DNA of 47,605 nucleotides from Candidatus Aenigmatarchaeota archaeon (GTDB lineage: Archaea; EX4484-52). This document shows, one piece after another, positions 1,698 to 46,033 of this stretch. The DNA lies in assembly GCA_023137195.1 (NCBI GenBank), contig JAGLPV010000016.1:1-47605 (forward strand), written 5' to 3'. Within the stretch, counting starts at the first letter, position 1. The number at the start of each line of letters is the position of its first letter. The translations under genes and the position numbers were made by a program. Below the pieces are notes generated by a model that was given only the letters and a program-made list of their open reading frames with translations, did no database searches and was not told the DNA's origin.

Positions 1698-3212
1698 ATG
1701 AAATTTCAAAAAAAATCAAAAATCGTTGTGCTTACACTTTTTCTTCTACTGTTTTTTTTGACATCTTTTTCTTATGCGTTTTCCCCAACATTTTATGATA
1801 ATTTTTGCGAAACAGAAAAAATTACAGATTTAACAATACTCAATACTCAATCATATCCAATAGTCGGAGGCAACTGGACTGTCAAGTTCAATACAACAGG
1901 AATTGCAGATTTGACAATTTTCCCGGCAGATGAAACTAATTGGAATAAAGCAGAAAAAAATAATGACCTGGAATTCCTGGAACTAAAATGCGGCAGTCAA
2001 ACATTAAATTACAGATGGACAAATAATGCAGTTTTTATTGAAAACTACTCCTGCGACCAGACCAGTTATGAAATATCAAATGTTTTGACTTCCGGCAAAC
2101 ATGCATTGAAATTTAGTTATGGAAATATCATAAGATATGCCAACAATTTTGCATCGGAAAATATAACTTTTGTCCTGCCTACAAAAGAAAACAATTCTTA
2201 TACTCCCAGCAACTGGGTCTATATAAACATCACCTCTGATGAAGACCTGAACCAGTCTTTGGTGGAATGGGGAAACTCTTCGGGATATACCAATATTTCG
2301 ATGAGCAATTCTTCCACAACAAATTGGCATATCAACATAACAGATTTGCAGGATTATGCTTATAATTACACTATTTTGGCTCAAAATACATCTGGCTATT
2401 GGGTGCAGACAGGGATAAGATATATCGATGTAGATACGACAACAACTTTAATTAATATACAATCCCCTTTATCTTACAACTATTCCACCCCCACAATATG
2501 GTTCAATACCACACTAAATAAGCCGGGAGACTGGTGCGGCTACTCTCTTGACGGAGCATCAAACATAACCATGACAAACTCTTCCGGCAACTGGAATGCA
2601 AAAAACACATCAATGACAATAGGACAGCACAATGTGAGATTTTACTGCAACGATACAGCAGGAAACATGAATTCAACTCCGGTAAGATATTTTAATGTTA
2701 AACAGCAGATGACCGGAAAGCTATATATCTCTTTATCTCTTCCAAACACAAACTATGTCTGCTCCAAACAATCAGGAATTATTGATTCAGGCACAGCAAG
2801 CTTTAATTATCCAAACCCGGAAGATGCATATGTAAATTCTTTTGGAAGCAATATAGTTTATTCTTTATCCTCAGACCGCGCAGCAAACATAATAGCGCAA
2901 AATTATCCATCCGACCACAAGATAAGCATATTTACAAACAGCGAAATATATCTTGGATTCACGAAAGGAGACTGCTCAACAATCACAAAAAAATACAGCA
3001 GGATAAAAGACAGTACCCTGCTTTACGAGTTGTCGCCTGCATTTGCCTATATTGACAGCACTGACGAGATTTGCGCAAAGGCAGGAGCAAGATACAGCAA
3101 TCTGAAACTCTCAGGCGAATCAGATATTCCATCAGGAAAGTACAATTTTCTGGTAAGCAAGCTTGACCCGGACAGCCAGGGCAGACCAACAGTAGATGTA
3201 AGACGAAGTTGA
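1698..3212 (+). CDS. Secreted surface glycoprotein, paralogous to the upstream gene in its C-terminal half
   Basis: Basic N-terminus plus hydrophobic signal peptide ending SYA; Ig-like repeats; C-terminal ~240 aa highly similar to the upstream ORF. Confidence 0.85.
   Translation: MKFQKKSKIVVLTLFLLLFFLTSFSYAFSPTFYDNFCETEKITDLTILNTQSYPIVGGNWTVKFNTTGIADLTIFPADETNWNKAEKNNDLEFLELKCGSQTLNYRWTNNAVFIENYSCDQTSYEISNVLTSGKHALKFSYGNIIRYANNFASENITFVLPTKENNSYTPSNWVYINITSDEDLNQSLVEWGNSSGYTNISMSNSSTTNWHINITDLQDYAYNYTILAQNTSGYWVQTGIRYIDVDTTTTLINIQSPLSYNYSTPTIWFNTTLNKPGDWCGYSLDGASNITMTNSSGNWNAKNTSMTIGQHNVRFYCNDTAGNMNSTPVRYFNVKQQMTGKLYISLSLPNTNYVCSKQSGIIDSGTASFNYPNPEDAYVNSFGSNIVYSLSSDRAANIIAQNYPSDHKISIFTNSEIYLGFTKGDCSTITKKYSRIKDSTLLYELSPAFAYIDSTDEICAKAGARYSNLKLSGESDIPSGKYNFLVSKLDPDSQGRPTVDVRRS
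2493..3101 (+). repeat. Copy 2 of the ~600-bp diverged direct repeat (coding)
   Basis: Aligns with 947-1552. Confidence 0.9.
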
Positions 3213-3240: not shown

Positions 3241-4605
3241 ATGGACTTGGATACAAAGACAATGATAATTGAAAACAACAAATGCGCATGGGGAAAATGC
3301 ATATTTTGTTCATTCAGCAAAAAGCAGAATGTGCAGATTCTTAGCGAAGACAAATTAAAACAATTAATTGAAAACGAATTAGATGGAATAACAACCTTAA
3401 AACAATTAAAATTTTTTAATTCCGGCAGTTTCCTGGATGAGAATCAAATACCCATTCCGGTTCAGGATTTTTTATTAGAAAAATGCAAACAGCTAAAGAC
3501 AGAAGAATTAATTTTCGAGTGCCACCCGATGTTTATTACCGACAAGAACATCAGCAGAATCAGGAAAAAACTAAACGATATTAATTACAGCCCCAAAATC
3601 AATGTTGCAATAGGATTGGAGAGTGCAGATAACACAATCTTAAAAAAAATTAAAAAAGGCATCACAAGAGAAACATACACAAAAGCAGTAGAACTACTAA
3701 AAAAATACAATTTTTATGCAAGAACATATCTGATGGCGAATCTCCCGTATAAAAAAGATTATTCCAAATCATTAAATGATTCTGTTGATTTTGCGCTTCC
3801 AATGAGCGACACAATATGTATAATAAATGCATATCCTTACGGCTATGCAGAATTGTTCGACATCTGGCTTAGCCGAAAATGGCACCCTCTAAACAAAAAT
3901 GAATTTGAAAAAATCACCAAAAAATACAAAAACAACAAAAAAATTGAGATATTTTTTGATGATTTCATTTCCTATCCGAAATTTTCACTTCCTAAGCAAA
4001 AAAAAGTTGATTTGTACGGGGCAAACAAATTCAATCTGACTCATCCATATTACGAAGTATGGCAGGAATACCTTGCAGATTTTTATATCCCTCCAAAAGT
4101 CAAAGAACATGTTTTAATCCTTCCATGCAGTTATAGAAAGCCGTATTCAATGTCAAAGACACACAAGGCAATTATTACACGACTCAAAGGAGCATATAGT
4201 TACGGGAAAATCCACCAAATTATGGTATCCAATCCGGGACTTATCCCGAGAGAGTTTGAGTCCAAATATCCTTTTGCCAAGTATGACTGGCCCGAAGCAC
4301 AGGAAACGCCAAATATAAAAAAATTATATACTGTTGTGACACAGGCAAGAATAGAGAACTATTTAAAAAATCACAAAGATTACTATTCTTACAATTCAAA
4401 AAAGCCTGTTTTTTGCTATCTGAAATACGAAGCAGAATCTTACATTGCATTAAAAAATGCATGCAAAAACCTGGATATTTCTCTAATAAATCTTGTAGAC
4501 AAAGACACATATGACTTGTTTAAAAAACAGGGAATGAAGGACATATTAATCAACGAGATGCTTCTGGACAAGATGTTTTTGGGTCTGGCAAAAAGAAAAC
4601 TATAA
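3241..4605 (+). CDS. Fusion of RaSEA-like radical SAM domain and ArcS (DUF5591) domain; putative archaeosine synthase
   Basis: N-terminal CAWGKCIFC cluster motif, KFFNSGSFLD, ECHPMFI and VAIGLESA (TIGR01210/RaSEA-like). C-terminal PCSYRKPYSMSKTH matches the ArcS motif PCx3KPYx2Sx2H; also GLIPREFE..YP...YD. Confidence 0.8.
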   Translation: MDLDTKTMIIENNKCAWGKCIFCSFSKKQNVQILSEDKLKQLIENELDGITTLKQLKFFNSGSFLDENQIPIPVQDFLLEKCKQLKTEELIFECHPMFITDKNISRIRKKLNDINYSPKINVAIGLESADNTILKKIKKGITRETYTKAVELLKKYNFYARTYLMANLPYKKDYSKSLNDSVDFALPMSDTICIINAYPYGYAELFDIWLSRKWHPLNKNEFEKITKKYKNNKKIEIFFDDFISYPKFSLPKQKKVDLYGANKFNLTHPYYEVWQEYLADFYIPPKVKEHVLILPCSYRKPYSMSKTHKAIITRLKGAYSYGKIHQIMVSNPGLIPREFESKYPFAKYDWPEAQETPNIKKLYTVVTQARIENYLKNHKDYYSYNSKKPVFCYLKYEAESYIALKNACKNLDISLINLVDKDTYDLFKKQGMKDILINEMLLDKMFLGLAKRKL

Positions 4606-5252: not shown

Positions 5253-5456
5253 ATGGCAAGTAGTAAAATGCATAAGATGATGTTATATATCAAGAATTAT
5301 GCAATCAAATGCAAAAGGGTGTTAAAACTACTGAAATATCCCGCAAAACAAGAATTGATGATGTCTATGAAAATAACAATAGCTGGTTTTTTAATAATTG
5401 GCTTTATTGGATTTTTGATAGCATTAATAATAAACAAATTGGATTTATTCGTTTAA
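5253..5456 (+). CDS. secE: Protein translocase subunit SecE/Sec61 gamma
   Basis: RVLKLLKYP...ITIAGFLIIGFIGFLI motif; conserved position before spt5-rpl11. Confidence 0.9.
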   Translation: MASSKMHKMMLYIKNYAIKCKRVLKLLKYPAKQELMMSMKITIAGFLIIGFIGFLIALIINKLDLFV

Positions 5457-5462
5457 TAGATT

Positions 5463-5912
5463 ATGGTAATATATGCAATAAGGACGACAAGAGGCAGGGA
5501 AAAGCTTATAATGGAAACCCTTTACAGTAAATTGGAGACCAATGAAGACAGCGACGTGTATGCTTTATTTCATCCCCCAAGTTTAAGAGGCTATATTTTT
5601 ATAGAGGCAAGAGACAAAGATGCCATAAGAACAGTAACTTCTCACGTACCAAATATTAGAGGAATGTTAAACGAGGAAGTGACAATAGAAAGTTTGGAAC
5701 ATTACTTTGCCAAGAAAGAAGAAAAAATAGTATTCAGGCAGGGTGATCTTGTAGAAATTATCCGCGGACCATTCAAAAAAGAAAAAGCAAAGATAAAGAC
5801 AGTAAATGAGGCAAAGGAAGAGGCAAAAATAGAATTGATAAACAGCGTTGTTCCAATACCAATTACAATTAAATTAAACCAGTTAAAACAATTAGAGACA
5901 CAAAGTGATTAA
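5463..5912 (+). CDS. spt5: Transcription elongation factor Spt5 (NusG family)
   Basis: IYAIRTTxGxE, LRGYIFIEA and KOW motif GDLVEIIRGPFK. Confidence 0.95.
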   Translation: MVIYAIRTTRGREKLIMETLYSKLETNEDSDVYALFHPPSLRGYIFIEARDKDAIRTVTSHVPNIRGMLNEEVTIESLEHYFAKKEEKIVFRQGDLVEIIRGPFKKEKAKIKTVNEAKEEAKIELINSVVPIPITIKLNQLKQLETQSD

Positions 5913-5913
5913 T

Positions 5914-7258
<1,345 letters not shown>

Positions 7259-35247: not shown

Positions 35248-36536
35248 AACCATGCAGGAATGAACAGAATCTTTCCTCCATTTATTTTTTGTTCTTCAAA
35301 ATAATTTCTGGTAACGACAATGCCTTTCCTGGCTTTATATTCCTCCATAAAAAACAGGACATTTTGAAAATCTTCTTTTCTTATTGTTGAACGGTATTTT
35401 ACCTCTATCGGCAAAGGGTTTTTTTTGCCCAATATTATGTCAACCTCGCGGCTTTTTTTGTCCTGCCAGTAAGATGGTCTGTTGGAATATTTTAACAGGT
35501 GATTAAAAACGCATGTTTCTACAACAAGACCCGTTTGAGTCCCGTTAAGCAAAAAAAGAGCATTGTCCGCAACATAGATTTTCGGGTTCTTTTCGAAAGT
35601 TTTTCTTGTGCTTTTTGAGAAAAACAAGCTTTTTTGTATCATAAAAGAAGTATCCAGATAGTCAATATATGTTTTGATGGTTTCAAATTTCGTCTTCAGG
35701 GAAAAGGAGAGATTATTGTAATTTACTGTATTTCCTGACTCTTTTACAAAACAATAGAATAATCCTTCCATTATGTCTGTTCTTTTTATGTTGAATATAT
35801 TTACAATATTCCTGTAAAAAGTCAGATCAATTATTGTTTTGACGGCTTGTTTTAACTGCGACTCTTCCAGTTCGTACAGCCCGGGAAGCCCGCCAATTTT
35901 AAGATAGTTTTCAAATAAAATCTTTATTTTTTCTGCTTCCGGAGGGTATTTTATGTTGTATATGGACATTGCCCCCGGGTTTATTCCATTGTATTTTAAA
36001 TATTCCCTGAAAGAGAACGGGTAAATCTTATGGATGTTGATTCTGCCGATTAAACTTTCTCCGCCGCCTTTCAGGATATTCATGCTCGAAGAGCCGGAAA
36101 TAAAAATTTTCAGGGGGTATTCCTTGTCATAAAATGATTTTAAATCTTCGCTCCAGTCTTTTATTTTCTGCACTTCATCAAAAAATAAGTATATTGTGTC
36201 TTTCAATTCATAGGCTGGTTTTTTTAATATTCTGCTAAAATACAGGAAGATTATCTTTTTGATGATCTTTTCTTCTTTGATTGAGTCAAAAGAGAAATAC
36301 AGGATGTTCTTTTTGTTGATGTTGTTATTTAACAGGTGATTTATTTGCTGTTTGAGGATGGTTGTTTTGCCAATTTGTCTTAAGCCTATTAGCCCGGTTA
36401 TTTGCTTTGATTTTAATTCATTGATGAGTTGAGGGTATATGTCGCGGGTTATTAGGTTGTCTTTTAGTTTTATTTTTCCGTCACGCCACCATGGGTTTTG
36501 TTCTGTTAGTTCGGTTAATAGTTCTTCTTCGTTCAT
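35214..36536 (-). CDS. AAA_14/DUF4143 ATP-binding protein
   Basis: QNPWW, GLRQIGKTT, FFDEVQ, ISGSS, PFSFREY, GGLP and EVD...PIEVK. Confidence 0.92.
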   Translation of the reverse strand: MNEEELLTELTEQNPWWRDGKIKLKDNLITRDIYPQLINELKSKQITGLIGLRQIGKTTILKQQINHLLNNNINKKNILYFSFDSIKEEKIIKKIIFLYFSRILKKPAYELKDTIYLFFDEVQKIKDWSEDLKSFYDKEYPLKIFISGSSSMNILKGGGESLIGRINIHKIYPFSFREYLKYNGINPGAMSIYNIKYPPEAEKIKILFENYLKIGGLPGLYELEESQLKQAVKTIIDLTFYRNIVNIFNIKRTDIMEGLFYCFVKESGNTVNYNNLSFSLKTKFETIKTYIDYLDTSFMIQKSLFFSKSTRKTFEKNPKIYVADNALFLLNGTQTGLVVETCVFNHLLKYSNRPSYWQDKKSREVDIILGKKNPLPIEVKYRSTIRKEDFQNVLFFMEEYKARKGIVVTRNYFEEQKINGGKILFIPAWLFLMSEQMNFP

Positions 36537-36569
36537 GGGTTAAATATAGAGGGAATGTTTATATAGTTG

Positions 36570-36620
36570 ACTCCAGTAACTGGAGTGAAAATGGGGGTTT
36601 TTGTTCCGGTTAGGGGAGTG
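36570..36620. promoter_or_regulatory. Palindrome ACTCCAG-TAA-CTGGAGT with a degenerate copy 33 bp away, upstream of the ATPase TATA box
   Basis: Perfect inverted repeat at 36570-36586; gttccggttaggggagtg at 36603-36620. Confidence 0.55.
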
Positions 36621-36659
36621 GATGATTTGTTAATTGGGACATATAGGACTTCGAGAAGT

Positions 36660-36800
36660 TTGCGAAGTGAAAATTTAGATGGAACGTAGCGAAATCCTAG
36701 GTTATATTCTCATCTGAAAGATTGTAAGGAGCGGAGCGACGAAGAGTTTTTGGATTACCAATAGATTCGACCGAAGGGAGTCAATATGTGCGTAGCACAG
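36660..36800 (+). other. Structured non-coding element with several GNA-triloop mini-hairpins
   Basis: GCGGAGC (36731), CCGAAGG (36771), TGTGCGTAGCACA (36787-36799), degenerate GCGAAGT (36662) and ACGTAGC (36684). Confidence 0.5.
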
Positions 36801-36919
36801 AGGCTGAGATGGTTTTTAAAAGACAAATTATATTATCATAAACAAGAAAGGGGGCGAGAAAATTCTAAAATAGCAATATTTATAACGATTTGCGGATATT
36901 TACTTATAGCAATAATATT

Positions 36920-39900
36920 ATGATTTCAAAAAACATCAGGGATTTAACTTTTATTACGAATGAAGAAGGAAATAAGTTATCCGATAAGTTTAGTATCCTT
37001 CTTAAAAATACAAAATTTTTTGATTGTTTGGTAGGATATTTCTATACGAGCGGATTTCATGCAATGTATAAATCTCTTGAAAATACAGATAAAATCAGAA
37101 TTTTAATTGGCATTAGTACGGATAGAAAAACATACGAATTAATTCAAGAAGCTGAAAATTCAGAATCTCAAATACAATTAGGTTTTTCAAGCAAGGAAGC
37201 AAAAACTCATTTTTCTGATAAAATAGTTGAGGAGATGAATAATTCTAAAGATTCAAAAAATGTAGAAGACGGTATTTTGAAATTTATTGGATGGCTGAAA
37301 TCGAAAAAGTTAGAGATTCGGGTTTATCCAGCAGAAAAAATTCACGCTAAATTATATATTATGACTTCCAGTGGAGGGGGTTTTGGAGATAAAGGTAGGG
37401 TGATAACAGGTTCTAGTAATTTTACAAAATCAGGATTAAATGATAATCTTGAGTTTAATGTTGTTCTGCAAAGACCAGAGGATTATGAATTTGCTTTAGA
37501 AAAGTTTGAGGGATTATGGGAAGATTCAGTTGATGTTTCTGAAAAATACATTGAAACTATTAAAACAAAGACTTGGCTAAATGATGAAATTACACCCTAT
37601 GAATTATTTTTGAAATTTTTGTATGAATACCTAAAAGAGAAGATACAATTAGATCAAAACCAGCTTTCTGATGATTTTAAACCTGAAAATTATATGAAAT
37701 TAAAATATCAGGAAGATGCGGTTTGGGATGCAAAGCAGAAATTAGATGAGTTTGGAGGAGTATTTATTTCTGATGTTGTAGGTTTGGGTAAAACATATAT
37801 GGCAACAATGTTAGCTCAAGAATTAAGGTGCAAAGTTTTGGTTCTTGCACCACCAATCCTATTAAATGATAATAATCCTGGTTCATGGCCTAATGCTTTT
37901 AGAGATTTAAGGGTTGGAGGGGTTTATTTTGAGTCATTGGGAAAATTGGATAATGTATTGAAAAGAGGCACGGAGAAATATGATGTTGTAATTATTGATG
38001 AAGCTCATAGATTTAGGACAGAAACTACACAAATGTATGAAAAGCTCTATAAAATTTGTAGAGGAAAAAGAGTTATTTTGGTTACAGCAACACCATTAAA
38101 TAATACGCCCATGGATATTCTTGCTCAAATAAAATTATTTCAAAATGCCCATAAATCAACATTGCCTAATCCCAAAGTAAGAGATTTAGAAAAATACTTT
38201 AAATCTCTTCAAGCAAAATTAAAAAATCTTCATAGGCAAGAAAATAAAGAAGATTACCTTAAAATTGTTCAGGAGAATGCAGAAGATATCAGAAAAAATG
38301 TTTTAAAACATTTAATGGTTAGAAGGACAAGAACCATGATTGATAATTATTATAAAAAAGATTTAGAAAAACAGAAATTAAAATTTCCGAAGATAAAAGA
38401 ACCAGAGGCAGTAATATATAATTTTTCAGAACAAACAGATAAAATATTTTTCAAAACATTAGAATTAATTGTTCATAAATTTAAATATTCTCGATATACA
38501 CCATTACTTTACTTAAAGGAAGAACTTCCAGAAAACCAACAAACACCTCAAAAGAATATGGGAAAATGGATGAAGATTCTCTTAATGAAACGATTAGAAA
38601 GCAGTTTTTATGCTTTTAAGAAATCAATTTCAAGATTTATTTATTCCTATACGAGATTTTTAGAAGAGTATAAAAACGGCAAAGTTTTCATTAGTGAGAA
38701 ATATACTTCTAAAGTATTTGAACTTTTGGAAGACGAGGATTTTGATGCTGTTGATAAATTAATTACTGAAGATAAAGCTAAAAAGATTGATTCAAGTAAA
38801 TTCACAAAGGGTTTTATTGATGATCTTAAGGCAGATTTAGCCATTCTTGAAGATGTTAATTTAATGTGGCGTGATGTTGATATAGATCCAAAGCTTGAAA
38901 CTTTTATTGAATTATTAAAAAATAATAAAATTCTTAAGGAAAATAAAATGATTGTATTCACAGAATCAAAGGAAACTGCTCAATATTTAGAATCTAAATT
39001 AAATCCTATATTTAATAACAAAGTTATTTCTTATTCTAGTGTTTCTGGAGAATCAACAAGAGAAAAGATTATTGATAATTTTGATCCTGCATCAAAGTCA
39101 AAAAAGAATGATGTAAGAATATTAATTTCAACAGAAATTTTATCTGAAGGCGTAAATTTGAATAGGTCTAATATTGTAATTAATTATGATATCCCTTGGA
39201 ATCCAATAAGAATGATGCAACGAGTAGGGCGTATAAACCGAGTTGGAAAAAATCTTCCTTTTGATGAAATTTATACTTATAATTTCTTTCCTGCCGGACC
39301 TATTAATGAGCAGATAAGTTTGACAGAGGCAGCAGAAGTAAAAATTCAATCATTTATAGAAATGCTTGGAAATGATGCGAAACTTCTTACTAATGAAGAG
39401 GTAAAATCTCATGAATTGTTTAAAAGATTAAATTCTAAAGAAATTTTAACTGGTGAAGAAGAAACAGAAGATATGGAATTAGAATGGCTTTTGAAGTTAA
39501 GAAAGATTAGAGATAACAAACCAGAACTTTTTGAAAAAATTAAAAGATTGCCAAAAAAATCAAGGACCTCAAGAAAAATGACCACAGAATTTGGACTTTT
39601 TACATTTTTTAAGAAGGGCAAATTAAGAAAATTATATTTTAATAATGGCAGATTTATTAATGAAATTGATTTTGATAAAGCTGTTGAAATGTTAAATGCA
39701 AAACCAACAGATAAAAAGATGAAATTAGCCTCTGATTTTTATAAGATGCTTAAACAGAATAAAGAAGAATTTAGTGACTTCTTCATAAATGAAGCAGATG
39801 CTCAAAAAGGAGGGAGTAAAGGACATGAAGGAAAGATTAAAAAAATCGTGAAAGCGATATTAAAGAAACCAGATGGATTAACTGATGATGATGAGGACTA

Positions 39901-40129
39901 TTTGAAAAATATACTAAACCTTATTCAAGATGGCGTAATTCCAAAAGAAACCCTGAAAAGAATAAATAATGCAATCAAAAAAGAAGAAATCAATCCCTTA
40001 AAGATATTTGCGAAAATTAAAGTTATTATCCCAGAGAATTCTGAATTTTTCAAAGAAACATATGCGAGTTTTTCAGGAAATATTGAAGGTCCAAAAGAGG
40101 TAATTTTATCGGAGATGTTTATAAAATGA
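36920..40129 (+). CDS. PLD-nuclease + SNF2-type helicase (restriction-associated)
   Basis: IHAKLYI...GSSNFT (HKD-type), DVVGLGKT, DEAH, TATP, SEGVNL and QRVGRINR. Confidence 0.9.
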   Translation: MISKNIRDLTFITNEEGNKLSDKFSILLKNTKFFDCLVGYFYTSGFHAMYKSLENTDKIRILIGISTDRKTYELIQEAENSESQIQLGFSSKEAKTHFSDKIVEEMNNSKDSKNVEDGILKFIGWLKSKKLEIRVYPAEKIHAKLYIMTSSGGGFGDKGRVITGSSNFTKSGLNDNLEFNVVLQRPEDYEFALEKFEGLWEDSVDVSEKYIETIKTKTWLNDEITPYELFLKFLYEYLKEKIQLDQNQLSDDFKPENYMKLKYQEDAVWDAKQKLDEFGGVFISDVVGLGKTYMATMLAQELRCKVLVLAPPILLNDNNPGSWPNAFRDLRVGGVYFESLGKLDNVLKRGTEKYDVVIIDEAHRFRTETTQMYEKLYKICRGKRVILVTATPLNNTPMDILAQIKLFQNAHKSTLPNPKVRDLEKYFKSLQAKLKNLHRQENKEDYLKIVQENAEDIRKNVLKHLMVRRTRTMIDNYYKKDLEKQKLKFPKIKEPEAVIYNFSEQTDKIFFKTLELIVHKFKYSRYTPLLYLKEELPENQQTPQKNMGKWMKILLMKRLESSFYAFKKSISRFIYSYTRFLEEYKNGKVFISEKYTSKVFELLEDEDFDAVDKLITEDKAKKIDSSKFTKGFIDDLKADLAILEDVNLMWRDVDIDPKLETFIELLKNNKILKENKMIVFTESKETAQYLESKLNPIFNNKVISYSSVSGESTREKIIDNFDPASKSKKNDVRILISTEILSEGVNLNRSNIVINYDIPWNPIRMMQRVGRINRVGKNLPFDEIYTYNFFPAGPINEQISLTEAAEVKIQSFIEMLGNDAKLLTNEEVKSHELFKRLNSKEILTGEEETEDMELEWLLKLRKIRDNKPELFEKIKRLPKKSRTSRKMTTEFGLFTFFKKGKLRKLYFNNGRFINEIDFDKAVEMLNAKPTDKKMKLASDFYKMLKQNKEEFSDFFINEADAQKGGSKGHEGKIKKIVKAILKKPDGLTDDDEDYLKNILNLIQDGVIPKETLKRINNAIKKEEINPLKIFAKIKVIIPENSEFFKETYASFSGNIEGPKEVILSEMFIK

Positions 40130-41463
40130 GATTTAGCGAGAATGAAACTTTAGAGCTGAAGAAATCAACTTCAGAATTAAAAGAAGGAATAATTTCTATT
40201 GTTGCTATTCTTAACAAACATAATTCAGGAGAGTTAATTTTTGGAATTAATCCAAAAGGAGATGTAAATGGACAACAAGTTTCAGAAAAAACAATTAGAG
40301 ATATCTCTCAAAAGATTGCAAGTTCAATAGAGCCAAAAATTTATCCGGAAATCAATAAAAAAATAATTGAAAGCAAAGATTGCGTAATTGTTAAGTTTAT
40401 GGGCGATGAACCAATCTATTATGCGGAAGGAAAAGCATATATTCGGGTTGGAGATGAAGATAGGCAGATGTCTGCCAAAGAGATTGAAAAACGAATAATC
40501 TCAAAAAGTAGCATGAGATGGGATTCAAAACCTTCTGACAAAAAAATAACAAATGTTAATGAAGAACTGCTTAAAAAATATTTTTCTGAAGCTAAAAATG
40601 CAGGCAGAATTAGTTTTTCTTATTCTAATAAAAAAAGTGTTCTTGAAAAACTTGAGTTAATTCATGGAGATTATTTAGTAAATGCAGGAAAGATCCTTTT
40701 TTGTGATGAGAATTCATTGGAAGTTCAAAGTGCAGTTTTTGCCGGAACGGACAAAAATACATTTCTCGATATAAAAGATAAAACCGGAAATCTTCTTGAT
40801 TTAATTGATTTTTCCGAAAATTACATTAAAGAGCATATTAATTGGAGAGCGGATTTATCCAGCAGTACCAGAATGGAGATTCCAGAAATACCAATAAGAG
40901 CTATATCTGAAGCATTAGTAAATTCATTTTGTCATAGAGATTATACTGCACCAGAGAGCAATAAAGTTGCGATATACAAAAATAGGGTTGATATATGGAA
41001 TCCAGGAGAATTTCCTTCTGATTTCAAACCTATGGATTTTATAAAAAAAGATTTGCCATCAATTCTTAGAAATCCTAAAATTGCTAAAATTTTGTACTAT
41101 AATAAGAAAATTGAAAGGTGGGGTTCTGGATTAAAAAGGATTTATGATGAATGCAAAACTCACAATGTTAAGGTTGAATTCAAGGTTTTAAGCTATGGAT
41201 TTAGCGTTATTTTTTATCGGACACAAATCGAACAGGAATTAGCTGCAAATCGGACACAAATCGGACACAAATCGGACGCTGAAACAAGGCAAAAATGGAT
41301 TCTTGATTATTTGAAACAAAAGAGTATAATTAAAAGTATGGAGATTATTAATAAATTTAAAGTCGTAAAAGATACTGCTTCTCATGATTTGAATAATCTG
41401 ATTGAGGAAGATAAAATTGTTAAAAAAGGAGCAGGAAATAATGTGTGGTATGAGTTAAAATGA
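40126..41463 (+). CDS. AlbA_2 (Schlafen-like) + HATPase_c_4 + winged-HTH protein
   Basis: ENETLELKKS, LIFGI, EALVNSFCHRDY, RNPKIA, IERWGSG and C-terminal wHTH. Confidence 0.88.
   Translation: MRFSENETLELKKSTSELKEGIISIVAILNKHNSGELIFGINPKGDVNGQQVSEKTIRDISQKIASSIEPKIYPEINKKIIESKDCVIVKFMGDEPIYYAEGKAYIRVGDEDRQMSAKEIEKRIISKSSMRWDSKPSDKKITNVNEELLKKYFSEAKNAGRISFSYSNKKSVLEKLELIHGDYLVNAGKILFCDENSLEVQSAVFAGTDKNTFLDIKDKTGNLLDLIDFSENYIKEHINWRADLSSSTRMEIPEIPIRAISEALVNSFCHRDYTAPESNKVAIYKNRVDIWNPGEFPSDFKPMDFIKKDLPSILRNPKIAKILYYNKKIERWGSGLKRIYDECKTHNVKVEFKVLSYGFSVIFYRTQIEQELAANRTQIGHKSDAETRQKWILDYLKQKSIIKSMEIINKFKVVKDTASHDLNNLIEEDKIVKKGAGNNVWYELK
41216..41278 (+). repeat. 11-bp tandem repeat (CAAATCGGACA) inside the coding sequence
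   Basis: Three tandem units at 41246-41278 plus two partial units at 41216-41234. Confidence 0.85.
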
Positions 41464-44400
41464 ATGAAGAACAGGCAAAATTGCTATTGGATGAGACATT
41501 TAATAAAGAGTTTAATATTTCAAGATTTTCGAATTTTTTAAAAGAATTAGTGAATACTTCAAATTTATTTTCTCAGGATAAAAGTCAATTTATTCCAAGA
41601 CAATTTAAGGATTACATTCTTGGAGTTACAAAGATAGGGCAATATAAAGACAATGCAGGAAAATCAATGGAACTTCTTGCCATAAAACTTGCGAAACATT
41701 CTTCTCTTGAAAGAGCAAGAACCATGCAGAGAAATTTTATAGCTAAATGGCTTTCAAATAATCCTGCTGAACCCGAAGGTGCCATTGTGGCATTTTATGA
41801 TGATGAACAAGATTGGAGATTTTCTTTTGTAAAATTAGAGTATACTCTTATTAAAGACGATAAAGGCAATCTAAAGGGGGAAAAAGAACTTACTCCTGCA
41901 AAAAGATATTCATTTTTAGTGGGGCGTAATGAACCAAATCATACTTGTAAAAAACAATTTGTGGATTTACTATCTGATAAACAGGATCCTTTATTCAATG
42001 AAATTGAAAATGCATTCAGTATTGAAAAGGTCACTAAAGAATTTTTTGAGAAATACAAAAATTTATTTTTGAGATTAAAAGAATCATTGCAAGAAGTAAT
42101 TGAAAAAAATTCTATTGTAAAAGATGAGTTTCTAAGGATTGCCGGAAACGATAAAGGCGAGCTTGAAAAGTTTGTAGTTGAGTTTTCAAAAAAATTGCTG
42201 GGGCAGATAGTTTTTCTTTATTTTCTGCAAAAGAAAGGATGGCTTGGAGTTCAAAAAGAGAGCAATGGAAAATTTAAAAAATGGGGAACCGGACCAAAAG
42301 ATTTTATGAAGCGGTTGTTCAATAAAGAATACGGATGTTATAATAATTTCTTTAATGATATATTGGAGTATTTATTTTATGATGCACTTGCAAGAAAAAG
42401 AGATCAGGATATACATAAATTTAATTCATTTGAATTTAAGATTCCTTTCTTAAATGGCGGTTTATTTGAGCCATTAGATGGCTATGACTGGGTAAACACA
42501 AACATCTACATTGAAAATGCAATATTCGAGGATATCTTCAAAACATTTGATGAATTTAATTTTACCGTAAAAGAAGATGAGCCATTGGAAAAAGAGGTTG
42601 CTGTTGATCCAGAAATGCTTGGAAAAGTTTTTGAGAATCTTTTGGGGGTGATCGATAGAAAATCAAAAGGGGCATTTTATACACCCAGAGAGATAGTGTA
42701 TTATATGTGTCGGCAATCTTTGATTAATTACCTGGAAACAAATACTTCTATTCTAAGGGGTGATATTGAGAAGTTTATCCAACTGGGAGATATTACAATA
42801 TCTACCAATATAAGAACATTGGACGAAATTAAAGAATTGGAAAAAAAAATGATCTCTGGTTTTGTTTCTGCAGAGGAATTTGGCAAAAAAATAAAAGAGC
42901 ATTCAGAAAAATTAGATATTCCATTAAGTATTGTCAGAAATAAAGAAAAAATTGACAATTTGCTTGAGACAATAAAAGTTGTTGATCCAGCTGTTGGCTC
43001 AGGGGCATTTCCTATTGGAATGATGAATGAAATAGTTAAGGCAAGGTCTATTTTATCCATTTTCTTGGGAAATGAAAGAGAGGTTTCTGATTTAAAAAGA
43101 CATTGTGTTGAAAATTCGCTTTATGGCGTTGATATTATGCCTTCTGCTGTAGATATATGCCAATTAAGATTTTGGTTGTCTTTGATAGTTGATGAGGATG
43201 ATAAAGATAAAGTAAAACCGCTTCCTAATCTGGACAATAAAATCATGTGTGGAAATTCATTATTAGAAGAGTTTGAGGGCGTAAAATTATTTGATGAGAG
43301 TCTGCTTGCAGAAGAAATCAAAGATATTCGCCCTGAACTCGATAGAATTGATAAAGAAATTAAAGAAACATATTTGAAGATTGGAGAGATAGAAAGAAGA
43401 GACCTTAAAGAAGACAGAACTAAACTTAAAAGAGAAATTAAAAAGTTGGAAAAGCAAAAAAAAGAGCTTCAATGCAAGCCGGAGAATACCGAGAGGAATT
43501 TGACTCTTGGGGAAATTGGAAAACAAAAGATTAAAGAATCTAAGCTAAAATTAGCTAAAATTCAGAATTTGCAAAAAAAATTATTCAATGAATATGATAG
43601 AGATAAGAAAACGGCGCTTAATAAAGAAATAGATAAGTTTGAATGGGATCTAATTGAAGTTACTTTAATGGAACAGAATAATGAAAAAGCTCTAGAAAAA
43701 CTAGAGAAAATAAAGAAAAGCAAATCAAAACCATTCTTCTTGTGGAAATTATACTTTTCAGAAGTCTTCCAAAGAGAAGATCCTGGTTTTGATGTTGTTA
43801 TTGCTAATCCTCCCTATTTGAGAGAGAAAGGGAATAAAGAAGTATTTGAAATTGTAAATAATTCGATTTTTGGTAAAAAATACCATCAAGGTAAAATGGA
43901 TTATTGGTATTATTTTTTACACAAAGCAATCGATATAGTTAGATTTAAAGGAAATATTGCTTATATCACCTCTAGATATTGGCTAAATAGCCATGGTTCT
44001 AAAAAACTAATTAATAGAATTAAGGGAGAACTTGTGTTTACAAATTTTATTGATATTGGGAAACTGAAAGTATTTGATAATGTAGTGGGGCAACATATGA
44101 TAGCCGTATACAAAAAAGATAATTTGCCCAATAAATTTATCTATAAGAAATTAGTAGATAATCTTGATGGAATAAATTCAAACTCAAATCCTCCAAATGT
44201 CGAGATAAGAACATTAAATAACGATAAGTTAATTGATGATGGAGAAATTATTTTACAAGTAGATTTTATTAATACAGATGGCACTATTCTTTTAGGAGAT
44301 ATCTGTAATACCTCGATTGGTATTCAAGAATCTGTTGATAAGATTAGCAGAAAGCAAATTGAGAACACAAAAAGGAAAGATATAGATGCTGGTAAAGGTG

Positions 44401-45125
44401 TTTTTGTTTTAACTCAAAAAGAAGTTGCAAAACTTGGCTTGAACGAAGAAGAAAAAAAGATTATAAAAAAATATGTTGATCCAAATGATATATATCGATA
44501 CAGTATAAGTCAAAAGAATAAGAAATATATAATCTATTCAGACAATTTAACCAAAAACAAAATTGCTAAAGATAAAGCCCATGTACATATCAAATCTCAC
44601 TTAGACAATTTAAACGAATTTATTACATCTTCAAATAAGCCGTATGGACTACATAGACCTCGGGAAGTAAAATATTTTACTATACCTAAGATAATATTTA
44701 AGGGCATGTTTAGAAAGAATGAGTTTTGTTATGATGAAAGTAGGTATTTTGTTGGTTTTTCGTTCTCAACAATCATTCAGAAAGATAAAAATTATTCTTT
44801 AAAATATATTTTGGCAATTTTAAACTCAAAACTTGCGTTACATTGGTTTTACAAAAACGGTAAACTGAGAGGTGGAGGGGTAGATATTGGTACTTTAAAA
44901 CTCAGGAAGTTTCCAATAAAGATAATTTCTTCAGAGCAACAAATACTATTTATCCACTTGGTAGACCAAATCCTTTCAATCACAAAAGATGACGATTATT
45001 TAGATAATCCCGACAAACAGGTAAAAGTCAAAAGATTGGAAAAAGAGATTGATGCACTGGTCTATAAATTATATGAACTGACTCATGAGGAGATAAAGAT
45101 TGTTGAGGGATTTGGTGAAAAATGA
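41460..45125 (+). CDS. Type IIG-like (Eco57I/TaqI_C) N6-adenine DNA methyltransferase with target recognition domain
   Basis: FLNGGLF, GAFYTP, DPAVGSGAF, NPPY and YILAILNSKL...LVYKLYEL. Confidence 0.92.
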   Translation: MNEEQAKLLLDETFNKEFNISRFSNFLKELVNTSNLFSQDKSQFIPRQFKDYILGVTKIGQYKDNAGKSMELLAIKLAKHSSLERARTMQRNFIAKWLSNNPAEPEGAIVAFYDDEQDWRFSFVKLEYTLIKDDKGNLKGEKELTPAKRYSFLVGRNEPNHTCKKQFVDLLSDKQDPLFNEIENAFSIEKVTKEFFEKYKNLFLRLKESLQEVIEKNSIVKDEFLRIAGNDKGELEKFVVEFSKKLLGQIVFLYFLQKKGWLGVQKESNGKFKKWGTGPKDFMKRLFNKEYGCYNNFFNDILEYLFYDALARKRDQDIHKFNSFEFKIPFLNGGLFEPLDGYDWVNTNIYIENAIFEDIFKTFDEFNFTVKEDEPLEKEVAVDPEMLGKVFENLLGVIDRKSKGAFYTPREIVYYMCRQSLINYLETNTSILRGDIEKFIQLGDITISTNIRTLDEIKELEKKMISGFVSAEEFGKKIKEHSEKLDIPLSIVRNKEKIDNLLETIKVVDPAVGSGAFPIGMMNEIVKARSILSIFLGNEREVSDLKRHCVENSLYGVDIMPSAVDICQLRFWLSLIVDEDDKDKVKPLPNLDNKIMCGNSLLEEFEGVKLFDESLLAEEIKDIRPELDRIDKEIKETYLKIGEIERRDLKEDRTKLKREIKKLEKQKKELQCKPENTERNLTLGEIGKQKIKESKLKLAKIQNLQKKLFNEYDRDKKTALNKEIDKFEWDLIEVTLMEQNNEKALEKLEKIKKSKSKPFFLWKLYFSEVFQREDPGFDVVIANPPYLREKGNKEVFEIVNNSIFGKKYHQGKMDYWYYFLHKAIDIVRFKGNIAYITSRYWLNSHGSKKLINRIKGELVFTNFIDIGKLKVFDNVVGQHMIAVYKKDNLPNKFIYKKLVDNLDGINSNSNPPNVEIRTLNNDKLIDDGEIILQVDFINTDGTILLGDICNTSIGIQESVDKISRKQIENTKRKDIDAGKGVFVLTQKEVAKLGLNEEEKKIIKKYVDPNDIYRYSISQKNKKYIIYSDNLTKNKIAKDKAHVHIKSHLDNLNEFITSSNKPYGLHRPREVKYFTIPKIIFKGMFRKNEFCYDESRYFVGFSFSTIIQKDKNYSLKYILAILNSKLALHWFYKNGKLRGGGVDIGTLKLRKFPIKIISSEQQILFIHLVDQILSITKDDDYLDNPDKQVKVKRLEKEIDALVYKLYELTHEEIKIVEGFGEK

Positions 45126-46033
45126 AAATAACCCAGAAAGTACGTGATTATCTCGCAGATCCAGATTTGTCTAAAGTGTTTTATAATGAGATTAGACTTG
45201 ACTTTGAACAAATAAAATCTGATGATGATGAAATTTTAGGTCTGTTTCATATTAATTTTCAAAAATTAAGAGGGGGAGAAGATTTTTTGGATGGATATTA
45301 TAATTATGAAGATAAAAAAATAGTCTATAATAAAGAGTTAGAATTACTTTTTATTAAAATTGAAGAAATTTTTATAATAGTATCATTAAATAAAGAAAAC
45401 ATTCAAAATTTAGTAGACAAAATTAATAAGAGTAAATTAAAGAACTTTTTTGTTCTTTCAGAGATTAAAGACTTAAAAAATTCTTCTTTTTCTATATTAT
45501 TTTATCCTTTTTTGTTAGAAGAATTTATTAATACAAAAAATAATTATACTATCGATTTTTATAACAAATTAAGCCTATCAATAAATGCATTTAGAACCGG
45601 ATTAAAAGATGATAATCAATTATATTATTATATGTCATTTATCTTACTTAGTTCTCTTTTAGAGGAATTGTTTATTTATATTGCTAAAAAAGAAAACATT
45701 TCTTTAGACAAAACTTATAGTATTGGTGATTGTATTGATAAATTGGAAGGAAAAATGTCTTTAATAGTTAAACATCCTGATGCTGTAAGAGAGAATAATG
45801 GAGAAAAAGAATTAATTGTATATTCTGAGCAAAACAATTCTAATAATCTATTTTCTAAAAACGATAAGCACATTGGAAAAAAGATAATTAAATTGCTTAA
45901 TGAAATTAAAGATATTAGAACAAAATATGTGCATTTTGTTTCGCAGAAACCTAATAATCCCTCAGATAATTTAATTGGAATAGTAAATTTTGGTCAGTTT
46001 TTAGTATGGTGTGAAAATAATGGTTACTTATAA
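45122..46033 (+). CDS. Hypothetical protein with C-terminal HEPN-like motif
   Basis: LLEE helix and IRTKYVH (Rx4H); ATGA overlap with the MTase gene. Confidence 0.65.
   Translation: MKITQKVRDYLADPDLSKVFYNEIRLDFEQIKSDDDEILGLFHINFQKLRGGEDFLDGYYNYEDKKIVYNKELELLFIKIEEIFIIVSLNKENIQNLVDKINKSKLKNFFVLSEIKDLKNSSFSILFYPFLLEEFINTKNNYTIDFYNKLSLSINAFRTGLKDDNQLYYYMSFILLSSLLEELFIYIAKKENISLDKTYSIGDCIDKLEGKMSLIVKHPDAVRENNGEKELIVYSEQNNSNNLFSKNDKHIGKKIIKLLNEIKDIRTKYVHFVSQKPNNPSDNLIGIVNFGQFLVWCENNGYL

What the first reader, a model, noticed from the sequence alone, without database searches (positions are those of the whole stretch)
3241..4605. RaSEA-ArcS fusion: candidate minimal single-chain archaeosine synthase
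Seen: an N-terminal radical SAM domain with RaSEA/TIGR01210-like motifs (CAWGKCIFC, FNSGSFLD, ECHP, AIGLESA) is in frame with a C-terminal domain carrying the exact ArcS motif PCx3KPYx2Sx2H (nt 4123-4164). Known: in Euryarchaeota, ArcS transfers lysine to preQ0-tRNA and a separate RaSEA cleaves the adduct to archaeosine; ArcS normally also has a TGT-like N-terminal region and a PUA domain, and neither is present here. Inference: both steps are fused in one 454-aa protein. I do not recall this architecture being characterised.
Basis: partly seen in the sequence, partly recalled or inferred. Interest (0 to 1): 0.78.

Follow-up and report, generated by a model that had tools for sequence, protein, structure and literature searches.

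The report
Fused single-chain archaeosine synthase (RaSEA–ArcS)
This gene joins, in one 454-residue protein, trimmed versions of the two enzymes that other archaea use as a complex to finish the tRNA base archaeosine, and the same fusion is the standard form in many tiny symbiotic (DPANN) archaea, though no one appears to have tested it.

Summary
Window 3241-4605 (+) is one 454-aa ORF. It has a radical SAM domain whose best family match is RaSEA, and a DUF5591/ArcS-C1 domain carrying the exact PCx3KPYx2Sx2H motif at nt 4123-4164. It has no TGT-like, C2 or PUA domain.

- The N-domain groups with RaSEA.
- The genome has arcTGT above its equivalog cutoff.
- The genome has no separate ArcS, RaSEA or QueF-like gene.

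New here:
- The fusion is a large conserved family: 123 full-length members aligned, 181 species genomes with a relative, from many DPANN lineages.
- arcTGT is its commonest neighbour, always on the opposite strand and typically head-to-head.
- Its radical SAM part is a separate, trimmed lineage beside canonical RaSEA. It has Cx4Cx2C spacing and lacks the 4-Cys tail.
- Reverse-order ArcS-RaSEA fusions also exist.
- This genome appears to import preQ0: YhhQ is present, QueC and QueD were not found.

The AlphaFold model is compact (pLDDT 96). I found no paper describing the fusion, but the two key papers (Yokogawa 2019, Phillips 2010) could not be read. Function is inferred, not shown. I rate it a new variant of a known kind, of moderate interest.

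The parts
3241..4605 (+). Whole ORF, 454 aa plus stop: RaSEA-like radical SAM domain fused to an ArcS C1 (DUF5591) domain
   Evidence: The AlphaFold2 model built with the 123-row alignment has pLDDT 96.0 and pTM 0.91.
3241..3975 (+). Radical SAM domain, residues about 1-245 (a trimmed RaSEA core)
   Evidence: TIGR01210 matches residues 5-192 to profile positions 15-205 of 313. VIA-align: model residues 4-243 match queuine lyase 6p78 at Z 19.6, rmsd 2.8, 209 aligned. The family N-domain HMM scores 114-145 bits against bona fide RaSEA.
3283..3309 (+). CAWGKCIFC: Cx4Cx2C, the presumed [4Fe-4S]/SAM cluster motif (C15, C20, C23)
   Evidence: The three Cys are invariant in 123 of 123 family members. 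The Cx4Cx2C spacing is found in 121 of 123. The 10 bona fide RaSEA have Cx7-9Cx2C.
3415..3438 (+). FNSGSFLD (residues 59-66), a conserved radical SAM core motif shared with RaSEA (RaSEA consensus TSGSFFD)
   Evidence: G62 and D66 are invariant; F59, S61, S63 and F64 are >=90% conserved. The same block appears in the standalone RaSEA consensus.
4054..4602 (+). ArcS C1 / DUF5591 domain, residues about 272-454
   Evidence: Pfam DUF5591, 64.9 bits. 2q07 (AF0587) by sequence, E 3.6e-10. The C-domain folded alone has pLDDT 94.4. Its only clear structural match is 2q07_A at Z 14.2, rmsd 2.7, 139 aligned; the next hit is 6.7.
4123..4164 (+). PCSYRKPYSMSKTH: the ArcS signature PCx3KPYx2Sx2H (residues 295-308)
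   Evidence: Read from the translation. The exact motif occurs in 109 of 123 fusion proteins and in 28 of 29 long (>=500 aa) C-domain relatives. The motif is quoted as ArcS-C1-specific in 10.1101/2023.04.13.536721 and PMC5699537.

Best explanation
The ORF encodes a bifunctional, single-chain archaeosine synthase that completes the tRNA G15 modification pathway in this small archaeal genome.

Proposed route: preQ0 is imported by a YhhQ/Vut_1 transporter, because no QueC or QueD was found. The stand-alone arcTGT (TGT+C2+PUA) swaps it for G15 in tRNA. The C-terminal ArcS-C1 domain of the fusion adds the epsilon-amine of lysine to the nitrile, giving preQ0-Lys. The N-terminal RaSEA-like radical SAM domain then cleaves the C-N bond of the lysine part with SAM and a [4Fe-4S] cluster, leaving the formamidine of archaeosine.

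The covalent link replaces the ArcS-RaSEA complex of Euryarchaeota. The tRNA-binding parts of ArcS (TGT-like N-domain, C2, PUA), and the N-extension and 4-Cys tail of RaSEA, have been dispensed with.

Shown here: the domain identities, motif conservation, family spread, gene content and the arcTGT linkage. Inferred: the substrates, lysine as donor, the product, and how tRNA is held.
For: Domains: RaSEA is the best family for residues 5-192; DUF5591/ArcS matches residues 234-379.

Catalytic residues: C15, C20 and C23 are invariant, and the ArcS motif residues are invariant or >=90% conserved, in 123 sequences. The exact motif is present in 109 of 123.

Relatives: 64 of 64 radical SAM relatives hit TIGR01210. 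10 of 10 tested are true RaSEA. The N-domain profile scores 114-145 bits against them, versus 61 bits for queuine lyase and 57 for Elp3 with the whole-family profile.

Structure: the whole-protein model has pLDDT 96 and pTM 0.91. The C-domain matches AF0587 at Z 14.2. The N-domain matches queuine lyase, another 7-deazaguanine C-N lyase, at Z 19.6.

Own genome: arcTGT is above its cutoff. The fusion is the sole DUF5591 and RaSEA-like gene. There is no QueF and no QueD. The 'QueC' hit is ThiI. YhhQ scores 181 bits.

Phylum of 42 genomes: DUF5591 is in 31, the same 31 that hold the fusion, and never as canonical ArcS. arcTGT is in 33. My hand count gives both genes in 28, fusion only in 3, arcTGT only in 5, and neither in 6. 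In 20 of the 28 with both genes the two lie head-to-head within 4 kb, and in 13 of those within 1 kb.

Named loci of other lineages: arcTGT is the commonest neighbour, in 31 of 79 loci, always on the opposite strand.

Five further fusion genomes: arcTGT is above its cutoff in 5 of 5 and no RaSEA is above its cutoff in 0 of 5.

Independent reverse-order fusions exist: P0161 (DUF5591+C2+PUA+radical SAM) and P0158.

Literature: ArcS transfers lysine even to preQ0 nucleoside, so the L-shaped tRNA is not required (PMC11298593, abstract and Discussion).
Against: No experiment exists for any member.

Both equivalog models are far below cutoff: TIGR01210 88 against 212, and NF040592 65 against 440.

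The radical SAM domain is a separate lineage (SH-aLRT 96 branch on a quick tree only). It has a different cysteine spacing and lacks RaSEA's CxxC...CxC tail, so its chemistry could differ.

No RNA-binding module is present, so the substrate could be something other than tRNA.

In this genome the fusion (contig C8) and arcTGT (contig C56) are not linked.

Five genomes have arcTGT without the fusion and three have the reverse. All eight are 57-89% complete.

The preQ0 source is not explained in 27 of 42 genomes of the phylum: YhhQ is in 8 and QueD in 7, with no overlap.

Fourteen of 123 members have motif variants, including H-to-W in 7.
Confidence: 0.72

Rival explanations
1. The protein works in the same pathway but with different chemistry. 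It acts on preQ0 in tRNA but uses another amine donor, or ends at a product other than archaeosine (for example a retained adduct or another 7-deazaguanine derivative). The reason would be that its radical SAM domain is a distinct lineage from RaSEA.
For: It scores below the cutoff on both equivalog models. It lies on a separate tree branch from all 10 verified RaSEA. It has Cx4Cx2C instead of Cx7-9Cx2C and has lost the 4-Cys tail. A 7-member subgroup has H-to-W in the ArcS motif.
Against: All core RaSEA blocks and the complete ArcS motif are conserved. There is no alternative archaeosine synthase (QueF-like, canonical ArcS) in the genome. Linkage to arcTGT is tight.
Confidence: 0.13
2. It is a salvage or recycling enzyme acting on free 7-deazaguanine nucleosides, nucleotides or bases in the manner of queuine lyase. 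It would supply a genome that cannot make preQ0, rather than modifying tRNA.
For: The closest solved structure of the N-domain is queuine lyase 6p78 (Z 19.6; 61 bits). The protein has no tRNA-binding domain. De novo preQ0 genes were not found. [quoted passage not shown]
Against: RaSEA sequences score about twice as high as queuine lyase. No RaSEA structure exists for comparison, so the structural ranking is biased. A preQ0 transporter homologue is already present. Head-to-head pairing with arcTGT fits a tRNA-bound step. Both domains catalyse the forward steps in the known system.
Confidence: 0.07
3. It is a DNA-modification enzyme that makes 2'-deoxyarchaeosine in DNA, like the C1-only ArcS2 of phages and viruses that works with DpdA.
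For: Viral ArcS2 is also C1-only (10.1101/2023.04.13.536721). The C-domain hits a PHROG of unknown function, phrog_34505, at 47 bits.
Against: There is only one TGT-family gene in the genome, and it is TgtA with a PUA domain, not DpdA. There is no PADLOC defence hit. The gene is housekeeping-like and vertically spread across a phylum.
Confidence: 0.03
4. It is an artefact: a chimeric assembly, or two genes read through as one.
For: None found.
Against: The same single frame, with the same domain order, occurs in 123 aligned proteins, in 31 of 42 genomes of the phylum and in 80 named loci. AlphaFold packs the two halves confidently, pTM 0.91.
Confidence: 0.01

Closest known systems
ArcS-RaSEA complex of Thermococcus kodakarensis and other Euryarchaeota (Yokogawa 2019, not readable here; PMC11298593)
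   Same: The same two catalytic modules: an ArcS C1 domain with PCx3KPYx2Sx2H and a TIGR01210-type radical SAM core. The same upstream enzyme, arcTGT, and presumably the same two-step lysine-transfer then radical-cleavage route.
   Different: Here there is one polypeptide in the order radical SAM then C1. ArcS's TGT-like N-domain, C2 and PUA are absent. RaSEA's N-extension of about 40 aa and its CxxC...CxC tail are absent, and the cluster motif is Cx4Cx2C rather than Cx7-9Cx2C. It is a separate branch in the domain tree. The alpha2beta2 stoichiometry of the known complex is recalled, not read.
AF0587 (PDB 2q07) and other short or C1-only ArcS forms, including viral ArcS2
   Same: The same DUF5591 fold (Z 14.2) and motif. 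It was already known that C1 can be encoded without the other ArcS domains (10.1101/2023.04.13.536721).
   Different: Those proteins carry no radical SAM domain. AF0587 has further C-terminal domains. ArcS2 acts with DpdA on DNA.
Queuine lyase (PDB 6p78)
   Same: The closest solved structure to the N-domain (Z 19.6, rmsd 2.8, 209 residues). It is of similar compact size and has the same Cx4Cx2C spacing (alignment). It is also a radical SAM enzyme bound to a 7-deazaguanine substrate.
   Different: Sequence similarity is lower than to RaSEA (61 against 114-145 bits). It is bacterial, stand-alone, and acts on the free base queuine.
Reverse-order ArcS-RaSEA fusions (P0161, P0158)
   Same: The same two enzyme families joined in one chain.
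   Different: The order is the opposite. P0161 keeps C2 and PUA. Their radical SAM parts fall among canonical RaSEA in the tree, so they look like independent fusion events.
QueF-like and Gat-QueC archaeosine synthases of Crenarchaeota
   Same: The same pathway position, preQ0 to archaeosine (PMC5699537).
   Different: They are unrelated folds. No QueF-family hit and no true QueC were found in this genome.

Membership tests
RaSEA (NCBIfam TIGR01210 equivalog) | Score at or above the curated cutoff (212.15 bits) over the full 313-position profile | tested here: not met
   88.1 bits, matching profile positions 15-205 only. The same holds in 5 other fusion genomes, at 91-135 bits.
RaSEA (NCBIfam TIGR01210 equivalog) | A three-cysteine radical SAM cluster motif and the conserved core blocks (SGSF.D, ESRPE-like, AIGLE, KGxT) | tested here: met
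   C15, C20 and C23 are invariant, and the core blocks are shared with the RaSEA consensus. The spacing differs, however: Cx4Cx2C against Cx7-9Cx2C.
RaSEA (NCBIfam TIGR01210 equivalog) | A C-terminal CxxC...CxC tail, seen in 9 of the 10 verified RaSEA | tested here: not met
   The fusion has no such tail. After residue 230 it has only C296 (within the ArcS motif), C392 and C408. That this tail defines the family is my reading of 10 sequences, not a published criterion.
RaSEA (NCBIfam TIGR01210 equivalog) | Works together with ArcS | tested here: met
   It is covalently fused to an ArcS C1 domain.
RaSEA (NCBIfam TIGR01210 equivalog) | Converts preQ0-Lys-tRNA to archaeosine-tRNA | not testable with these tools
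   This needs an anaerobic enzyme assay.
ArcS, archaeosine synthase subunit alpha (NF040592 / NF053620) | Score at or above the cutoff (440 / 600 bits), full-length architecture | tested here: not met
   64.9 and 61.6 bits, covering the C1 region only.
ArcS, archaeosine synthase subunit alpha (NF040592 / NF053620) | C1 domain (Pfam DUF5591) with the motif PCx3KPYx2Sx2H | tested here: met
   DUF5591 at 64.9 bits against a cutoff of 26. The exact motif is at residues 295-308. The fold match to 2q07 is Z 14.2.
ArcS, archaeosine synthase subunit alpha (NF040592 / NF053620) | A TGT-like N-terminal domain, a C2 domain and a PUA domain | tested here: not met
   No PF01702, PF14810 or PF01472 hit at E<=1. 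The whole chain is accounted for by the radical SAM and C1 domains in the model.
ArcS, archaeosine synthase subunit alpha (NF040592 / NF053620) | Lysine transfer to preQ0 at tRNA position 15 | not testable with these tools
   This needs an enzyme assay.
Queuine lyase | Closer in sequence to queuine lyase than to other radical SAM families | tested here: not met
   The fusion-family profile scores 61.3 bits against 6p78. The N-domain profile scores 114-145 bits against verified RaSEA.

The most novel reading that the evidence does not exclude
The DPANN fusion is a self-contained minimal archaeosine synthase. Its two active sites would form one composite chamber that passes the preQ0-Lys intermediate directly from one to the other. 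It would need no RNA-binding domain of its own, either because it recognises only the flipped-out nucleotide 15 or because it works on tRNA still held by arcTGT. If so, it is the simplest system in which the unsolved ArcS/RaSEA mechanism can be seen in one crystal or cryo-EM structure. It would also show that the large TGT-like scaffold of canonical ArcS is dispensable.
Probability: 0.3. Interest if true: 0.7.

Novelty: new variant of a known kind. Interest (0 to 1): 0.5.

Why it matters
Archaeosine at tRNA position 15 is a hallmark archaeal modification. Its last steps were only recently assigned to the ArcS-RaSEA pair, and authors in the field state that structures of ArcS, RaSEA and tRNA together are still needed (PMC11298593, Discussion).

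This matters in three ways:
- A natural 454-residue single chain holding both catalytic modules, predicted with very high confidence and present in hundreds of genomes, is a compact target for mechanism and structure work.
- It gives independent gene-fusion evidence that the two enzymes act as one unit.
- It lets annotation pipelines, which now call these genes 'DUF5591 domain-containing protein' or 'radical SAM protein', assign archaeosine synthesis to many DPANN archaea. Some of these seem to depend on imported preQ0.

Tried and rejected
Complex prediction of arcTGT (residues 1-517, alignment A3) with the fusion (alignment A1): the verdict was 'no answer', with scores of 0.00 and 0.00 and no controls run. 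This is neither for nor against binding.

Sigma-70 promoter and terminator scan around the gene: fewer sites than in the shuffles, and not suited to archaea. Dropped.

tRNA scan of the window: no tRNA genes, so there is no local substrate information.

QueC: six weak PP-loop hits. The only one covering most of the profile is ThiI. Rejected as QueC.

QueT transporter: none found.

PADLOC: no hit.

Whole-model Foldseek and VIA lists were filled by the radical SAM domain. I therefore folded and searched the C-domain alone.

The careful maximum-likelihood tree did not finish in 278 s. Only the quick tree with SH-aLRT support is reported. I did not build a C-domain tree.

Literature: 6 full-text searches and passages from 7 papers gave no mention of a RaSEA-ArcS fusion. 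Yokogawa 2019 and Phillips 2010 are not held and could contain it. Supplements were not consulted.
Full report
OBSERVATION. Window 3241-4605 (+) is a single 454-aa ORF. PCSYRKPYSMSKTH at residues 295-308 corresponds exactly to nt 4123-4164. Pfam finds Radical_SAM (residues 14-169) and DUF5591 (274-379, 64.9 bits against a cutoff of 26). It finds no TGT, TGT_C2 or PUA domain. In NCBIfam the best model is TIGR01210, 'archaeosine biosynthesis radical SAM protein RaSEA', at 88.1 bits. The next radical SAM family scores 36 bits. The two ArcS models match the C-terminal part. Both equivalog scores are far below their cutoffs (212 and 440) because only part of each profile is present.

IT IS A FAMILY, NOT AN ACCIDENT. 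A word-indexed search found 207 homologues. Of the 120 listed, 118 carry both Pfam domains and 2 list DUF5591 only. They are 410-510 aa long. Where they are named, the names are 'DUF5591 domain-containing protein', 'radical SAM protein' or 'hypothetical', from records labelled Nanohalo-, Aenigm-, Nano-, Micr- and Altiarchaeota, DPANN, and one Asgard.

The exhaustive representative search gave 1067 hits at E<=1e-3 and 22 at E<=1e-30. Of the 267 proteins collected, 130 match both halves, 73 only the N-half and 63 only the C-half.

I aligned 123 full-length members as A1. C15, C20 and C23 are invariant. P295, C296, K300, P301, Y302 and H308 are >=90% conserved, and S305 is invariant. The exact ArcS motif is in 109 of 123. 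Six members change the first P, seven change the last H to W, and one did not match my pattern. The Cx4Cx2C spacing holds in 121 of 123.

In the species-representative genome collection, 181 stretches encode a relative. The best 80 all span both domains, and 5 of them are cut by contig ends.

WHAT THE TWO HALVES ARE. N-half: all 64 non-fusion or differently arranged radical SAM relatives hit TIGR01210 at E<=1e-5. Ten long ones scanned singly are bona fide RaSEA, at 266.8-381 bits. An HMM of the fusion N-domains scores 114-145 bits against those ten. The whole-family profile gives 61.3 bits for queuine lyase 6p78 and 56.8 for Elp3.

The fusion's version is trimmed. Verified RaSEA have Cx7-9Cx2C, about 40 extra N-terminal residues and, in 9 of 10, a CxxC...CxC tail. 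The fusion has none of these.

I built a quick tree of 110 N-domains. It included 35 of the 123 fusions, sampled at random, and dropped rows whose match spanned fewer than 150 profile positions. The careful search did not finish. A branch with SH-aLRT 96 puts all the fusions (together with short fragments and a few odd proteins) on one side. All ten verified RaSEA lie on the other side.

No RaSEA or full ArcS structure is in the PDB. Structurally, residues 4-243 are closest to queuine lyase (Z 19.6, rmsd 2.8, 209 aligned). The next matches, Elp3 and viperin, score 17.2.

C-half: folded alone (pLDDT 94.4), it has one clear match among 48,161 chains. That match is AF0587 (2q07) at Z 14.2, rmsd 2.7 and 139 aligned; the next is 6.7. 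This agrees with the sequence hit at E 3.6e-10. The literature describes this C1 domain as the ArcS-specific catalytic core carrying the motif.

The whole-protein model has pLDDT 96.0 and pTM 0.91, so the two halves are predicted to pack as one body.

GENOME CONTEXT. The assembly is 1.42 Mb in 57 contigs and 84.8% complete.
- It has one TGT-family gene, on contig C56. The gene is 594 aa with TGT+TGT_C2+PUA domains, and scores 428.7 bits on TIGR00432 TgtA against a cutoff of 350.
- The fusion is its only DUF5591 and only TIGR01210 match.
- No QueF family and no QueD were found.
- The QueC hits are PP-loop cross-matches. The fullest one is ThiI.
- A complete YhhQ/Vut_1 queuosine-precursor transporter is present at 181 bits. 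QueT is absent.

The simplest pathway is therefore: import preQ0, insert it with arcTGT, and finish with the fusion.

ACROSS RELATIVES. The tool's 'phylum' holds 42 genomes, all of one order.
- Near-full-length or contig-cut fusions (E<1e-100) occur in 31 of them.
- DUF5591 occurs in the same 31, including 9 of the 10 high-quality genomes. Apart from a second copy in G007 and two weak extra hits in G031, it is found only inside the fusion frame.
- arcTGT occurs in 33.

Counting by hand: both genes in 28, fusion only in 3, arcTGT only in 5, and neither in 6. The 8 discordant genomes are 57-89% complete. Three genera lack both genes. Kin are not independent, so I give no test.

In 20 of the 28 genomes with both genes, the two lie on one contig, head-to-head, within 4 kb. 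In 13 of those they are within 1 kb. In 7 genomes, including this one, they are on different contigs. In 1 genome they are 42 kb apart.

In the 80 named loci from other lineages, my ORF clustering found the fusion in 79. arcTGT (TGT+C2+PUA) is the most frequent neighbour, in 31 loci, and always on the opposite strand. Of those, 29 are upstream and 2 overlap by my ORF calls. Only 65 loci had more than 1.8 kb of upstream sequence available.

In five further fusion genomes the fusion is the only full DUF5591 gene, no RaSEA passes its cutoff, and arcTGT passes its cutoff in 5 of 5. One of the five duplicates a genome of the phylum set, so only four are additional.

Against a uniform salvage picture: YhhQ is in only 8 and QueD in only 7 of the 42 genomes, with no overlap. 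This leaves 27 genomes without a recognised preQ0 source.

OTHER FUSIONS. P0161 (DUF5591 part + TGT_C2 + PUA + Radical_SAM) and P0158 (DUF5591 + Radical_SAM) join the same two enzymes in the opposite order. Their radical SAM parts fall among canonical RaSEA in the tree. The pair therefore seems to have been fused more than once, which is classic gene-fusion support for a physical and functional unit.

MECHANISM. Known, from PMC11298593 (abstract and Discussion read): arcTGT inserts preQ0 at G15. ArcS transfers lysine to give preQ0-Lys. RaSEA, in complex with ArcS, converts that to archaeosine. ArcS works even on preQ0 nucleoside, so the L-shaped tRNA is not essential. The details of the radical cleavage and the alpha2beta2 stoichiometry are recalled from Yokogawa 2019, which I could not read.

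I infer that the fusion carries out both steps in one chain, and that loss of the TGT-like, C2 and PUA modules is tolerable because nucleotide-level recognition suffices. How tRNA is held is open. A complex prediction with arcTGT gave no verdict and is not evidence either way.

RIVALS. I considered four: different chemistry or product in the same pathway, a queuine-lyase-like salvage role, DNA modification in the manner of viral ArcS2, and an assembly artefact. They are weighed in the rivals section. The single TGT gene being TgtA with a PUA domain, the absence of any PADLOC hit and the arcTGT linkage argue against the last three.

NOVELTY. The parts and the pathway are known. C1-only ArcS forms were already noted in print. 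The fusion is present in public databases under generic names. Six full-text searches and passages from seven papers gave no description of it. The two key primary papers and all supplements were out of reach. I rate it a new variant of a known kind, of moderate interest. It is a sound and useful functional prediction and an attractive minimal system, not a new principle.

Noticed in passing
proteins P0161 and P0158: These are reverse-order fusions of the same two enzymes. P0161 is DUF5591 (partial) + TGT_C2 + PUA + Radical_SAM, and P0158 is DUF5591 + Radical_SAM. Their radical SAM parts group with canonical RaSEA, which suggests independent fusion events.
   Followed up: partly
fusion family members P0058, P0078, P0079, P0082, P0091, P0092, P0094: A subgroup of 7 of 123 members has the last motif residue changed from H to W (PCxYxKPYxKSKTW). 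It includes the one record labelled Asgard. This may mean altered chemistry.
   Followed up: no
phylum genomes G001-G041: 27 of 42 genomes have neither a YhhQ transporter nor QueD. Several nearly complete ones (G037-G041) still keep arcTGT and the fusion, so their source of preQ0 is unexplained.
   Followed up: partly
G013:C53:1266-2738 and G007:C46:7814-9001: In G013 the fusion matches as two pieces (profile positions 1-168 and 161-433) inside one 502-aa open frame, suggesting an insertion between them. G007 has a second, partial copy. P0124 (635 aa) has an insert of about 190 aa between the domains.
   Followed up: no
window 1698-3212 (+): The 504-aa ORF just upstream has a hydrophobic N-terminus and many N-x-S/T sequons (read by eye). 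It has no Pfam match at E<=0.001. It is possibly a secreted or surface glycoprotein.
   Followed up: partly
window 36001-46000: This stretch has low GC (0.26-0.33) and a strongly positive GC skew (0.16-0.30) compared with the rest of the window. It holds very long ORFs at 36890-40129 (1079 aa) and 41460-45125 (1221 aa).
   Followed up: no
window 5253-7258 (+): Downstream genes look, by eye only, like a SecE / Spt5(NusG) / ribosomal protein L11 cluster followed by an aspartate or ornithine carbamoyltransferase-like ORF (6332-7258). No tool was run on them.
   Followed up: no
handles G046 and G015: The two handles give identical contig numbers and coordinates for the fusion and arcTGT hits, so they are the same assembly. 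The taxon label in the title of the record that led to G046 does not fit the tool's grouping with the window's phylum.
   Followed up: no
window 3241-4602, residues 266-383: The C-domain matches phrog_34505 (unknown function, 47 bits). This is probably the viral C1-only ArcS2-like family.
   Followed up: no
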